From: Lingula anatina
Lineage: Eukaryota > Animalia > Brachiopoda
Assembly (NCBI GenBank): GCA_051362555.1
Contig: CM120642.1
Coordinates: forward strand, 744,001-808,000
Direction: 5' to 3'
Length of the DNA stretch: 64,000 bases
Shown: positions 4,901 through 45,300 of the stretch, piece after piece
Layout: each line of letters opens with the position of its first letter
How positions within the stretch are numbered: position 1 is the first letter of the stretch
Position numbers and translations under genes: made by a program
The notes under the pieces: model-generated
Seen by the model: only the letters and a program-made list of their open reading frames with translations
The model's database searches: none
What the model was told of the DNA's origin: nothing

Positions 4901-7900
4901 TCAGAGCTGAAAGTGACTATAATACTTTTAAAGCCTGTCTTAAAACTCATCTTTTTAAAGAATTTTATGGCTAGTGTTCCTTTAAACCTTTTAGTTGTTT
5001 ATCATTTATTAAGAGTGAGCTTGGGTTAATTTTAGTAGTATTTTAAAGTTATATCAATAAATTTTCTCTGCTTTCTTTAATTAATTAATTTTATCAGTAA
5101 ATGTTAAAGTATTTTAGTATTGTTATTTTTAGACTTTTTAATTATTTGTAAAGTGCATTGAAATGTAAAAAATGGAATGCGCTATATAAGAAATAAATAT
5201 TATTATTATTATTATTATTATTATCAGATAATTGAAGAGAAGATGACCTCTCAGACATGCTGAGGTGCTCTCCAGTTTAATGAAATTTGATAATTGCAAT
5301 GTTTTCCAGTTGATACCAATTAGTTATTATTCAAAACCAAATGTAGCTTCCATAAGCTGTAGTCTCAATGTTTTCATGTTGTTTTCCCCTCAGAAATAGT
5401 CTGTTCATTGAGTTTTGGTCTTTTATTTCTAAACTTTCTCGTTTTATTTCCCCTCAGGACGGGTCTGTTCACCCCAGATTTGGTCTATTATTTCTCAACT
5501 TTCTCGTTTTATTTCTCCTCAGAACTGGTCTGTTCACCCCAGATTTGGCCTTTGAGACCATAGTGAAGACACAGATAGAGAAGCTGAAGGAGCCATCCAT
5601 CAAGTGTATTGACATGGTGGTGGCAGAGCTGACAAGTGTGGTCCACTGGTGTGCTAGCAAGGTAATAACCATCTCTCAGGGTGGACACACACACATGCAT
5701 GCACGCATGCACATTGTATCATACCTCAACTCCCTGCCTTTGTCTGTAGATGGCCAGACACCCAGTACTCCAGGAGGAGACAGACCAGACACACACACAT
5801 GCAAGCACTCGCGCGTGCACACACACACACACACACACACACACACACACACACACACACACATTCAGTATCATACCTCAACTTTCTATCTTTGTCTTCT
5901 AGATGGCCAGATACCCAGCACTCCAAGAGGAGACAGAAAGAATTGTCAACTCCAGGATTCGAGAGTATGAACAGAAAGCCAAGGAACAGGTGACACTGCT
6001 GGTGGATGTACAGCTATCTTATATGAACACTAATCATGAAGACTTTATAGGATTTGCCAAGTAAGTTACCTAACCCCCCCTCCCCATGTTCGTTTGTTAG
6101 TTTTGTTAGGTCAACTCTTAGGCTTCGTTCACATGCAATGTCTATTTTCTATTTTCTATTTTCGGTATGTCTTATGATCACGGCCTGTGCACTGAATATC
6201 CCGCCGCGTAATTACTGGCAGCGCGAGCCAGTTACTTATAGTAACTTATAGTAGAACTTATAGAAAATAGAAAATAGAAAATAGACATTGCATGTGAACG
6301 AAGCCTTAGTCTTCCCTTATTACAGTCATCAGTCACTTTCTCTGATCTTATTTTTGTGGAAAATATGCTCTTTGTTCTTTGAATGGATGAGAAAACTAGT
6401 ATGTTGAAAGGAAGTGTTAGTATTTTTATAAACAAGCAATAGATTTCTATTTTTTTTTTCCAGTTCTCTTTTTAAAGTTAAGTGTTACAGATTAACAAGA
6501 TGTCTAAGTATCTGTTCAATAAAATGGCATATTAAAGATAAGTGTCTCCTTATCTGAAATGACTGGAAGGTTTGTTAAAGATAAATAATGCTGCCTGCAA
6601 AATTGATGTCCTGCAATATATGCTTAAATTTGGTGTGATTATTTATTCCAGTGCACAACAGAAATCTGAGAATACAACCAAAAGAAAAATAGGAAATCAG
6701 GTTAGTTGATATATCGTCAGCTTCAGGTTATTATTATTATTATTATTTTTTTTTTTTTAAGAGTAAAAAGTGATTAGTTGTATTCAGATACAACACCCTT
6801 CTTGGTTATCCAGACAAATCAATCTGTTTTACAGCTCTTACTTGGCTTATTACAGAGAGTCAAAGAAAACTGACATCAAAATTGTCATTGACATCTCTGT
6901 CAGCTTTCCAAGGTCCCAGGAGACATTACAGTTCTATCAGAGAACCTGATGACATTCCAAGCTGCCAGGCAATGTGTGGTGTCCAATACCAACCTAATCA
7001 AATTATCACATTAAGTATTACCAAACAAATCAACCAAGAATGTTTTTCATCTGTTGAATGAAGTTAAGAATGAAATCAAGACTCAAATTGCTTATCCAGT
7101 CTAAGAACATTTCTTGTACAACCATCAGTGTGTGAAGTTCTAGAGTCAAGGTGGACCCAGTCAGGGCAAAACTTCACAACTTCTGACCCAATTCCAAACA
7201 ATAGTGACAGCCTTTCAACAAGTCTGATTATTTTGGAGCATTAATCTGTCCAAATGGGCAGATGGTAATTTCTAATTCACCAATGACCTACATGTATAAA
7301 TTTCATAATAAGCAATCTTCCTGAAAGATTTCAAAAATATTTCATGACAATAGTCATAGAAATAAATTTTTGGCTAATGAATACATTTAAAATATTTAAC
7401 CATAGCCTCACTGCCATCAACCATATTGTGTTTTGGGTGAGTTGTACCTTCAGAATTTCCACCATGTTTTAAGAGCATGATGTGGATGTTTGATGACTTC
7501 AGGAAGTCCATTTCTGGTTTAAGTTTAAGTTTTTATGTGAACTAACCTTAGAAATTTTTGTAAGCATTGTAAGTTTTCCATTTCTTTTCCAGGGAGGTCT
7601 CAAGAATCAGGTACTTAAAGTGAAATGATTTAGAAGAGACTTTTTTTTTTTAATGAAAGAAATTTGCACATTCATTTAGCTAGACAAGAAATATTCACAA
7701 TTACTGTGACAGAGCTGAGAAAGAAATTGATGTTTTTGTGACTTATTTATGATCAATGCATGGGAGCTAATGTCCCTTTATAGGGTCCTGTTATTATAAT
7801 AACATTGAAGCTATGATAACAAAAAAATTTATTAATTTAATTGACTATTTTCTGTTGAGATTTTACTGATTTTCAGCTTTTGTAATTAGTGTTCTTATTA

Positions 7901-42300: not shown

Positions 42301-45300
42301 CGCTGGTGTCTGTATGGAGGGAGGACTGGACGGGCCGTCTATAGGGGTGTGCACAGCACAGAATATAAGCCTTGGACAAGAACCACTGCCAGGTAAGTGT
42401 AATTTTGTGGAAAGGGGAAGGGGGGGGGGGGGGGGGGACTGCCAGGTAATTGTATGGGGATGGGGGGGTGAAAGGTGGGTGGAGCACTCTGCTACTTTTC
42501 TTCATTTTTCTTTATGTAGGGGAATGGTGTTAATTTTCATCAGATCATCAAAAAATTAAGAAATATTATAGAAAGTATGTGATACATAAGACTGCTCCAC
42601 GTGTAAATTAATAGATGGAGCCTCTATAGTGCTTATATAGAATAAGACTATGTTGCAAAGTAAAAAGAATATTTATCAATTGATTATTTATCTTCACATT
42701 CAGCTGCAGTTGCAAATCTGACGCAGTATGCCAGTGGCGCCCCCACCTGGGCGTACTCTGCATGTCCTCCAGAGAACGAGTGCGCTAACGGCCACCACGA
42801 ATGTAAAGTGAACGATGACTGTGTAGATGAGGTGCAGGGATACACATGTTTGTGTAAAACTGGATACCAGAGGAACACCACGTAAATAATGATTTTGTTT
42901 AATCTTAATTTCAGTAGTTAAATGATGTGGACAAAGCTTAACATTGCAACATAAATGAATATGTAAAGTACCGTGGTGCTTACGTCAGTTATCTAGCCTG
43001 AAATTTTGACTTCAGTAATGAAAATGATGACACTAGGTGATGACCTGGGTGCCAGAGAGCTTTCAGAATGTGGTACTGTAATGCTATAAATCAGTATAGT
43101 TGTCACTTCAGTATGGTGTAGTCAATATCAAGATGGGCAAAAGATTGAGGGGAGAATTAACATCAGTGAATATGCTGTGCTAGGCTTTTGTAATTAACTA
43201 AGACAAAATGCTTTTCCCTGTCTACATTTATTTATTATTTATTTATTTATTTATTTATTTATTTATTTATTTATTTTCCAGCACTGACCTCTGTGTCCCA
43301 GTGTGTTTTGGAGGTCAGGGGTGTAACCAGGGCACCTGTGTGGCCCCAGACGTGTGCGAGTGCCGCTTTGGCTGGGTGGGACAGAAATGTGCCACGGAGT
43401 GTCAGTGTAATAAACACAGCACATGTCAGAGTGACACACAGACTGATGTCTGTCTGGATTGTAAGAACAACACCAAGGTAAGTGTGTCACAGAATGTCAC
43501 ATGTCACAGTGACACACAGACTGATGTCTGTCTGGATTGTAAGAACAACACCAAGGTAAGTGTGTCACAGAATGTCACATGTCACAGTGACACACAGACT
43601 GATGTCTGTCTGGATTGTAAGAACAACACCAAGGTAAGTGTGTCACAGAATGTCACATGTCACAGTGACACACAGACTGATGTCTGTCTGGATTGTAAGA
43701 ACAACACCAAGGTAAGTGTGTCACAGAATGTCACATGTCACAGTGACACACAGACTGATGTCTGTCTGGATTGTAAGAACAACACCAAGGTAAGTGTGTC
43801 ACAGAATGTCACATGTCACAGTGACACACAGACTGATGTCTGTCTGGATTGTAAGAACAACACCAAGGTAAGTGTGTCACAGAATGTCACATGTCACAGT
43901 GACACACAGACTGATGTCTGTCTGGATTGTAAGAACAACACCAAGGTAAGTGTGTCACAGAATGTCACATGTCAGAGTGACACACAGACTGATGTCTGTC
44001 TGGATTGTAAGAACAACACCAAGGTAAGTGTGTCACAGAATGTCACATGTCACAGTGACACACAGACTGATGTCTGTCTGGATTGTAAGAACAACACCAA
44101 GGTAAGTGTGTCACAGAATGTCACATGTCACAGTGACACACAGACTGATGTCTGTCTGGATTGTAAGAACAACACCAAGGTAAGTGTGTCACAGAATGTC
44201 ACATGTCACAGTGACACACAGACTGATGTCTGTCTGGATTGTAAGAACAACACCAAGGTAAGTGTGTCACAGAATGTCACATGTCACAGTGACACACAGA
44301 CTGATGTCTGTCTGGATTGTAAGAACAACACCAAGGTAAGTGTTGTGGCCAATTTACCAATAGGATATAGCTAGAAAATTGGTCTTAATGTTTTCTTTTC
44401 TTCTTTCTCTTATGTTCTCACATACAAGTTGATAACAAATGAAAGTTGTCGTATCTCAATGCATAACACCCTGCAAACATAGGGAGTCAAATTTCCTATC
44501 ATTATTAATAACAGTGACTGTAATCCAGGTATTTTATTCACTCTGTGTTATTCAGGGTGCCCACTGTGAGCTCTGCAAGCCTCTATATGCATTGTATTCA
44601 CTCTGTTATTCAGGGTACCCACTGTGAGCTGTGCAAGCTTCTATATGTATTGTATTCACTCTGTGTTATTCAGGGTGCCCACTGTGAGCTGTGCAAACCT
44701 CTATATGTATTATATTAACTCACTCTGTGTTATTCAGGGTACCCACTGTGAGCTGTGCAAGCCTCTATATGTAGGAAACCCAGTCAATGGCGGCAGCTGT
44801 ATTTCCTGCCAGGATTACTGTAACAACCACTCCTCTGTATGTCTGTCAGAGGTGGAGTACCAGATGGTTCTCAATGACTTCAAACTGCTCAGCTTTGTAA
44901 GTACTAGACAGTTTTCAAGCACTCAAGGTACTCAGCTTTGGTTCAGATGTTTCATGGCCTGTAAAACATGGTCCTCAATGACTATTAGTTGCTTTGTGAG
45001 TATGTAGCGCTCTTTGAAAAGTGATCCAGGAAAGAAAAATAATAAAGTCCAAACAGCATTGGTTGATAGATTCTTACTATTTTGTAGAACATTTTAGGCC
45101 ACAGCTTTTGTAACAAACGTGCTTTCATAATTATTACTATTATATGACAGTCAGTGTTAATGCTGCCTCCCATTGATAACCTGCAGGTGCCAAGCTGGGT
45201 GACAGAGGGTCCACCAGATGGCAGTGCTAGGTGTGTGGGCTGTCTTGGGAACACAGAGGGAGCCACCTGCAGTCAGTGCAAGAGAGGCTACTTCAGAAAG

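What the first reader, a model, noticed from the sequence alone, without database searches (positions are those of the whole stretch)
5365..44773. Systematic amplification of exon-intron junctions: ten unrelated tandem arrays each built on a real splice site
Seen: across three genes and both strands, almost every non-transposon minisatellite has a unit that contains a functional splice junction plus adjacent exon sequence. Donor arrays: 55 bp x19 (25708), 100 bp x3 (29408), 62 bp x13 (32453), 54 bp x13 (38519), 78 bp x12 (43420) and 69 bp x3 (SELENOF, 22987). Acceptor arrays: 65 bp x3 (5365), a two-copy duplication (5711), 70 bp x3 (36091) and about 60 bp x4 (44535). The units share no sequence, so each arose locally. 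The arrays always grow into the intron and leave the CDS intact. The junction-poor stretch 47.5-59 kb and the long dynamin introns have no comparable arrays. Inference: a duplication process targeted to splice junctions (e.g. R-loop or pausing-linked template switching, or RNA-templated repair), together with a splicing or NMD system that tolerates stacks of identical splice sites. I am not aware of this being a named system, but cannot check the literature.
Basis: partly seen in the sequence, partly recalled or inferred. Interest (0 to 1): 0.85.

Follow-up and report, generated by a model that had tools for sequence, protein, structure and literature searches.

The report
Splice-junction "mirage" minisatellites in a brachiopod
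In a lamp-shell (Lingula) genome, ten short DNA stretches that straddle an exon edge have been copied head-to-tail into the neighbouring intron, a repeat type already named "mirage" in lancelets; the one array read deeply in RNA is spliced only at the genuine site, and the clustering at exon edges likely reflects duplications that start in or beside coding exons.

Summary
The ten arrays are real, each spanning a true splice junction of dynamin, SELENOF or MEGF8. The host is Lingula: the predicted dynamin matches the L. anatina protein apart from alternative exons. Junction overlap exceeds chance: 10 of 14 strong local duplications against 2.7 expected; 10 of 12 against about 5 after GC-matching, P about 0.002. 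This is one pre-selected window, and MEGF8 supplies 7 of the 10. Three arrays were checked in other individuals' DNA and are present; one has a unit variant absent here. All 365 SELENOF junction reads use the genuine donor. Corrections: the phenomenon is named (amphioxus "mirages", PMC3087553, PMC3902484; human F7, PMC1557585), and a long dynamin intron does hold a 53-bp array. RNA templating has no support: 0 of 60 spliced junctions occur in the DNA, and the junction falls anywhere within the unit. This scan has noted the same pattern in other genomes. Verdict: a dense new example of a known kind; why duplications favour exon edges remains open and testable.

The parts
5383..5551 (+). Dynamin acceptor mirage, 65 bp x3; genuine acceptor before 5523, decoys before 5458 and 5394
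   Evidence: the database dynamin P0139 is collinear with use of the genuine site
5684..5937 (+). Dynamin acceptor two-copy duplication, about 153 bp; genuine acceptor before 5903, decoy before 5750
   Evidence: P0139 collinear
11476..12187 (+). 53-bp x 11.5 minisatellite in a dynamin intron, starting 29 bp after the donor at 11447; does not span the junction, possibly junction-derived (11 of 14 bases match the donor region; best of 61 other donors is 10)
22981..23184 (-). SELENOF exon-2 donor mirage, 69 bp x3; two decoy donors identical to the genuine one, each adding a stop if used
   Evidence: 365 RNA junction reads all at the genuine donor, zero RNA depth in 23006-23151
25707..26753 (+). 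MEGF8 exon-3 donor mirage, 55 bp x19, 11 unit types, 17 intact decoy GT donors
   Evidence: going-back joints and 4- to 6-fold depth in DNA runs X3 and X4, plus a 62-bp unit variant absent from the window
28485..28660 (+). Decayed 92-bp duplication across the MEGF8 exon-5 donor (28565)
29408..29694 (+). MEGF8 exon-7 donor mirage, 100 bp x3; 5-bp direct repeat at the founding ends and a 13-nt filler
32453..33280 (+). MEGF8 exon-13 donor mirage, 62 bp x13-14, only 6 exon bases per unit, diverged terminal unit
36090..36305 (+). MEGF8 exon-19 acceptor mirage, 70 bp x3; 6-bp direct repeat at the founding ends
   Evidence: about doubled DNA depth and a contig break in X1 and X3, no RNA depth over the decoys at low coverage
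38507..39204 (+). MEGF8 exon-23 donor mirage, 54 bp x13; first decoy is in frame without a stop, later ones meet a stop
39612..39760 (+). Decayed duplication across the MEGF8 exon-24 donor (39675), with a decoy donor retained
42385..42454 (+). 53-bp two-copy duplication of the MEGF8 exon-29 donor (42392)
43420..44343 (+). MEGF8 exon-31 donor mirage, 78 bp x12; 11 identical decoy donors, all in frame and stop-free (26 codons each)
44529..44773 (+). MEGF8 exon-32 acceptor mirage, 58-64 bp x4; genuine acceptor before 44738
44864..44983 (+). Weak decayed copy of the MEGF8 exon-32 3' end in the next intron
   Evidence: score 27; alignment poor beyond 16 bases
1991..19255 (+). Dynamin gene (5' end outside my model)
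22231..23623 (-). SELENOF coding span, four exons
24353..47531 (+). MEGF8 coding span, 36 exons; extra repeat copies make up 27% of its intron bases

Best explanation
These are mirage minisatellites: tandem arrays whose unit spans an exon-intron junction, likely seeded by DNA-level tandem duplication between short direct repeats with one end inside a coding exon, then likely expanded by ordinary minisatellite turnover, and tolerated because splicing uses the site next to the complete exon (shown here for SELENOF, predicted for the others). Shown: the anatomy, the junction excess in this window, presence of three arrays in other individuals, allelic difference in unit type at one array, and genuine-donor use at SELENOF. 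Inferred: seeding is more frequent in or beside GC-rich coding exons than in AT-rich intron or UTR DNA; events wholly inside an exon are removed by selection, so the survivors look junction-targeted; later copy gain and homogenisation happen by slippage or unequal exchange.
For: Junction excess: (8 of 127 junction windows against 2 events in 403 non-exonic tiles at score 40 or more, Fisher P 3e-4; both non-exonic events start within 44 bp of a donor). GC-matching raises the expectation from 3.15 to about 5 of 12, so composition carries part of the effect. Breakpoints are not tied to the splice site: exon share of the unit runs 0.10-0.87, mean 0.50, uniform. No spliced sequence in the DNA (0 of 60). 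Exact direct repeats at the founding ends: 6 bp (70), 5 bp (100), 3 bp (62-bp variant of the 55), 2 bp (55), 1 bp (60 and 153) in the six edge pairs examined, which I picked by eye. Variant units in block-like order and diverged terminal units match the turnover described for BflGb6 (PMC3087553, passages read). X3 and X4 carry a 62-bp unit absent from the window. About 9.6 kb of 3' UTR and intergenic DNA holds no array. 365 of 365 listed SELENOF intron-2 junction reads use the first donor, as for human F7 (PMC1557585, abstract and introduction read).
Against: The excess remains after GC-matching (P about 0.002), so base composition alone is not the cause; units with only 6 or 11 exon bases and the two junction-adjacent arrays that contain no exon base suggest that nearness to a junction itself may matter. 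No exon-internal duplication was seen to show that such events arise and are purged. The direct repeats are short and their register was chosen by hand. One window, picked because of this pattern; 7 of 10 arrays are in one gene. SELENOF decoy use would add a stop, so decay of such RNA could hide it, and the RNA individuals were not shown to carry the array.
Confidence: 0.58

Rival explanations
1. Duplications are seeded by a process tied to the splice junction itself, such as co-transcriptional spliceosome-linked pausing, R-loops or an exon-edge nucleosome boundary in the germline, acting at DNA level.
For: Excess persists after GC-matching; both donors and acceptors, both strands; the two non-spanning arrays begin 11 and 29 bp from a donor; odds ratio 14, 95% interval 3-132.
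Against: No breakpoint clustering at the splice site; nothing here distinguishes it from exon-centred seeding plus selection; units are not richer in hairpins than matched junction windows.
Confidence: 0.24
2. There is no real mutational bias: a gene-dense genome with short introns, removal of exon-internal events and selection of a striking window produce the pattern.
For: Random placement already hits a junction 29-55% of the time in MEGF8; dynamin alone is not significant; the window was chosen after the fact.
Against: P 0.005 within MEGF8 alone, 4e-5 across the three genes; four to five further decayed junction copies; junction-spanning arrays recur at several junctions per gene in amphioxus (PMC3902484, PMC3087553).
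Confidence: 0.11
3. RNA-templated repair or reverse-transcribed pre-mRNA inserts junction copies.
For: All ten units contain a transcribed junction. An unspliced template would leave no spliced trace, so it is not strictly excluded.
Against: 0 of 60 exon-exon 16-mers found; unit ends do not coincide with splice sites; copies are strictly adjacent and head-to-tail.
Confidence: 0.03
4. The arrays are selected regulatory devices (decoy stacks that tune splicing or make repeat-length isoforms).
For: Two long donor arrays have units divisible by three, and the 78-bp array is stop-free in frame.
Against: No decoy use in 365 SELENOF reads; decayed copies show loss with time; most units shift the frame or add a stop; about one unit length in three is divisible by three by chance.
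Confidence: 0.03
5. Assembly artefact.
For: Seven of the ten arrays were not checked in reads; exact copy numbers are unverified; run X3 shows low depth over the SELENOF array.
Against: The 55-bp and 70-bp arrays appear in DNA runs of other studies, the 69-bp array in X4; units carry shared point variants in ordered patterns.
Confidence: 0.01

Closest known systems
Amphioxus 'mirage' minisatellites (Adh3, globins BflGb6 and BflGb9, troponin C, PGBD5): PMC3087553 and PMC3902484, passages read; the original Adh3 paper (Canestro 2002, PMC117041) was not held and is known to me only through those citations
   Same: Tandem units spanning exon-intron boundaries, at both donors and acceptors, unit 10-160 bp, several per gene, intact decoy splice signals, normal splicing, allelic variation, homogenised interior and diverged edge units, origin unexplained.
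   Different: Host is a brachiopod, not a cephalochordate; higher copy numbers at donors (up to 19 against 2-7 in the passages read); density measured here (10 of 127 junctions clear, about 14 with decayed copies) with an explicit enrichment test.
Human junction-spanning VNTRs: F7 IVS7 37 bp, CBS IVS13, LMNB2 100 bp, PDGF intron 4 81 bp, 6-16 intron 2 (PMC1557585, abstract and introduction read)
   Same: First unit spans the donor, identical pseudo-donors follow, the most upstream donor is normally used.
   Different: Isolated loci in the human genome, donor side only in that paper; in CBS and 6-16 the nearest decoys are also used, which was not seen at SELENOF and is untested at the other arrays here.
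Intron gain by tandem duplication of a proto-splice site (Rogers model; Zhuo 2007; Gao and Lynch 2009, as cited in PMC3087553; human cases in PMC2812944, passages read)
   Same: Same raw event, an internal tandem duplication carrying splice signals.
   Different: Here existing junctions are duplicated and no new intron or exon was shown.

Membership tests
Mirage minisatellite | Tandem repeat whose unit spans an exon-intron boundary of the host gene | tested here: met
   10 of 10 listed arrays
Mirage minisatellite | Minisatellite-size unit (about 10-160 bp), locally derived | tested here: met
   Units 54-153 bp, each matching its own junction; best cross-unit score 39 of 66 pairs
Mirage minisatellite | Many units keep GT or AG splice signals | tested here: met
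   58 intact decoy GT sites over six donor arrays; the five acceptor decoys the script listed score at or above the genuine site; it missed the decoys before 5394, 5750 and 44614 because of its identity cut-off
Mirage minisatellite | Regular splicing is not disturbed | tested here: met
   SELENOF 365 of 365 listed reads at the genuine donor; weak for the 70-bp acceptor; eight arrays not tested in RNA
Mirage minisatellite | Allelic instability in length or unit make-up | tested here: inconclusive
   A 62-bp unit type in X3 and X4 is absent from the window's 55-bp array; copy numbers cannot be read from these contigs
Mirage minisatellite | Concerted evolution of interior units with diverged edge units | tested here: met
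   Unit tables (62-, 54-, 65- and 78-bp arrays)
Mirage minisatellite | Somatic instability (reported for Adh3) | not testable with these tools
   Needs single-molecule reads from one animal
RNA-templated (cDNA) insertion | Exon-exon joins or unit ends at splice sites | tested here: not met
   0 of 60 spliced 16-mers; junction position uniform in the unit
Transposon-derived satellite | Unit shared with a dispersed mobile element | tested here: inconclusive
   No similarity to the 146-bp repeat at 60.3 kb (best score 23); each unit matches its own exon; no whole genome was held to search

The most novel reading that the evidence does not exclude
The Lingula germline has a duplication process aimed at exon edges, active at roughly one junction in ten, driven by splicing-coupled or exon-nucleosome-coupled DNA lesions. 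A genome-wide catalogue would then give the first quantitative handle on the unexplained origin of mirages, and thousands of natural tests of splice-site choice among identical sites, including stop-free in-frame donor stacks such as the 78-bp x12 array that decay pathways cannot mask.
Probability: 0.27. Interest if true: 0.62.

Novelty: new member of a known kind. Interest (0 to 1): 0.33.

Why it matters
Mirages have been reported gene by gene since 2002 with their origin called unclear (PMC3087553). This window shows them in a brachiopod at high density, with a measurable excess at junctions that survives GC-matching, so the question of why duplications favour exon edges can be asked genome-wide in a species with DNA and RNA data. 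Practically, such arrays mislead gene prediction and short-read assembly, make up 27% of MEGF8 intron bases, and put variant copies of coding sequence next to the exon, where a contraction could change codons. It is not a new system.

Tried and rejected
Whole-genome test: no genome held. Shared sequence motif: GTCAC/GTGAC lies within 60 nt of 6 of 6 array donors against 12 of 56 others, but it was noticed after the fact and its family-wise P is about 0.11; three 6-mers reached 0.02-0.04 in one of four tests and rest on 2-3 units; not accepted. Hairpin-prone units: only the 78-bp unit stands out; combined P 0.05 for folding energy, 0.90 for stem length; not accepted. Donor arrays longer than acceptor arrays (19, 3, 14, 13, 12, 3 against 3, 2, 3, 4): P 0.057, suggestive only. 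Orthologous introns: 30 of the 71 loci (those that looked genomic) gave 193 approximate dynamin exon edges from other eukaryotes, 0 with a local copy scoring 30 or more and one shared 13-base donor copy seen in three redundant loci; these are redundant, probably short-read contigs of distant organisms, so this only suggests the pattern is not universal. No close relative of Lingula was available. No RNA holder was listed by index; RNA runs came by species label. Literature: nine searches found no genome-wide test of junction enrichment and no report for brachiopods; the Lingula genome paper (PMC4595640, term search of the main text) has no mention of minisatellites; its supplements were not read, and most subscription papers are not searchable. 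PMC12783039 (earthworm metallothionein, passages read) concerns intronic repeats and was not relevant. A dynamin micro-exon at 18245-18265 was left out of the junction set (127 instead of 129), which does not change the tests materially. Look-ups of earlier findings for this genome, relatives and 'Lingula' returned nothing.
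Full report
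The window is animal genomic DNA, about 36% GC, holding most of a dynamin gene (+), SELENOF (-), MEGF8 (+) and part of an NPDC1-family gene (-). I annotated 66 exons by hand; all internal ends are GT/AG and the frames are open; Pfam agrees with the names. A 67-residue dynamin exon is 100% identical to the Lingula anatina protein P0139, and my whole model matches it at 788 of 812 positions, differing at a mutually exclusive exon and a micro-exon. The host is therefore Lingula, a brachiopod. RNA reads confirmed 8 MEGF8 introns in one stretch and five introns in another, where they moved my SELENOF exon-1 donor by 15 bases to 23582.

Observation. All ten arrays are at the stated coordinates and each contains one real junction. 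An unbiased scan for local direct repeats gave 27 clusters; of the 14 strong ones, 10 span a junction, 2 start 11 and 29 bp after a donor, and 2 lie in a probable mobile element at 60-64 kb; of the 13 weak ones, 4 span a donor and look like decayed duplications, and most of the rest are low-complexity. Fourteen of 127 junctions have an intronic copy of their exon edge at score 24 or more, against 0.39 expected from mismatched pairs. With arrays collapsed and exon-internal placements excluded, 2.74 of 14 would span a junction by chance (P 2.7e-5); in the three genes 10 of 12 against 3.15; in MEGF8 7 of 8 against 3.03 (P 0.005); in dynamin 2 of 3 against 0.62, not significant. Matching on unit GC raises the expectation to about 5 of 12, P about 0.002. 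The bias is thus real here but smaller than it looks, and the P values are conditional on a window picked for this pattern. The claim that long dynamin introns lack such arrays is wrong: a 53-bp x 11.5 array sits at 11576-12184; it may itself descend from the nearby donor (11 of 14 bases; best of 61 other donors 10), which is only suggestive.

Real DNA. Three of the ten arrays were checked. Over the 70-bp array, depth is 173 in X1 and 211 in X3 against 95 and 102 in the bin before, X3 contigs break at the repeat, and no joint skips it (X1 may be the source sample, X3 is from another study). At the first unit of the 55-bp array depth is 323 in X3 and 90 in X4 against about 70-100 and 15, with joints that go back one unit; both runs also carry a 62-bp unit type that none of the window's 19 units has, so alleles differ. 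The SELENOF array shows doubled depth and contig breaks in X4, but lower depth than its flanks in X3, which I cannot explain; that allele may differ. Contig depth gives no copy number.

Splicing. The six donor arrays hold 58 intact decoy GT sites, most identical to the genuine site over nine bases; the five acceptor decoys scored equal or exceed the genuine site on a matrix trained on the window's other junctions. At SELENOF intron 2, 109 reads in X13 and 256 in X18 all join at the genuine, first donor, no other joint reached the listing threshold (3 reads, 1%), and RNA depth inside the array is zero. Caveats: decoy use there adds a stop and could be degraded, and the RNA animals were not genotyped. 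At the 70-bp acceptor there is no RNA depth over the decoys against about 10 in the exon in X12, but the joint itself was below threshold. The database dynamin is collinear with use of both genuine acceptors.

Mechanism. The units are contiguous genomic DNA: none of 60 exon-exon 16-mers occurs in the window, and the exon share of the unit is uniform from 0.10 to 0.87, so breakpoints are not set by the splice site. Exact direct repeats of 6, 5 and 3 bases flank three founding units, 1-2 bases the other three pairs examined, in registers chosen by eye, which fits slippage or template switching (established for minisatellite birth; recalled, my search found no paper). Variant units recur in blocks and edge units are diverged, the usual marks of turnover. 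I infer that seeding is more frequent in or beside coding exons (50% GC against 32%), that exon-internal events are purged, and that the survivors therefore straddle junctions. A junction-linked process (pausing, R-loops, nucleosome edges) predicts nearly the same anatomy and cannot be separated in one window; the residual excess after GC-matching keeps it alive. Shared motifs and hairpins were tested and not accepted. Among 193 approximate dynamin exon edges from 30 loci of other eukaryotes none had such a copy at score 30 or more, weak evidence that the rate is lineage-dependent.

What is known. Tandem repeats spanning exon-intron boundaries were named mirages in amphioxus Adh3 and found at both boundary types in globins, troponin C and PGBD5, with normal splicing, allelic length change and unknown origin (PMC3087553; PMC3902484; passages read). 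Human F7, CBS, LMNB2, PDGF and 6-16 carry donor-side examples, and F7 constructs showed that the most upstream donor is chosen (PMC1557585, abstract and introduction). I was led to the term by earlier notes of this scan, which record the same pattern in other genomes; I checked the papers myself. Nine searches found neither a brachiopod report nor a genome-wide enrichment test, within a library that lacks most subscription papers.

Verdict. Observation confirmed with corrections; interpretation partly supported. This is a dense new example of a known kind. Interest 0.33: ordinary as a class, worth a genome-wide follow-up because the exon-edge bias is measurable and its cause is still open.

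Noticed in passing
window 10219-10328 and 11338-11447: Two 110-nt same-phase paralogous dynamin exons in the PH domain, apparently mutually exclusive; P0139 uses the first, my model the second.
   Followed up: partly
window 7593-7610, 16968-16991, 18245-18265: Three dynamin micro-exons of 18, 24 and 21 nt with good splice sites; the last two are represented in P0139, the first is not.
   Followed up: partly
window 23628-23833: SELENOF transcripts start at 23628-23635 head-to-head with a probable MEGF8 5' UTR exon ending at 23833, suggesting a very short bidirectional promoter.
   Followed up: no
window 37360-37426: 67 bases missing or replaced in an X3 contig; they include an acceptor-like near-copy 32 bp upstream of the genuine exon-21 acceptor, next to a high-copy repeat fragment at 37307-37357. 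Possibly a polymorphic junction micro-duplication.
   Followed up: no
window 43420-44343: The exon-anchored unit and one internal unit differ from the other ten by one base that changes a codon and completes a 13-bp palindrome; exchange between decoys and exon could alter the protein.
   Followed up: partly
window 41075-41390: A roughly 100-bp duplication flanking a long CT microsatellite, starting 11 bp after the exon-27 donor; not counted as junction-spanning.
   Followed up: partly
window 59279-59348: Weak 55-bp-offset copy of NPDC1-like exon sequence just inside the following intron (score 25); possibly another decayed mirage.
   Followed up: no
window 60100-64000: Probable non-autonomous mobile element with a 146-bp x 11 internal array, a 47-bp array and a tandem duplication of about 820 bp (62334-63150 and 63151-63985); class not tested.
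   Followed up: no
window 23006-23151: DNA run X3 has about a third of its flanking depth over the SELENOF array while X4 has double; the array may be absent, shorter or diverged in X3.
   Followed up: no
six donor arrays: GTCAC/GTGAC lies near all six array donors against 12 of 56 others; not significant after correction, but cheap to test genome-wide.
   Followed up: partly
L059, L062, L063: One orthologous dynamin intron in another eukaryote has a 13-base copy of its exon end plus donor about 150 bases into the intron.
   Followed up: no
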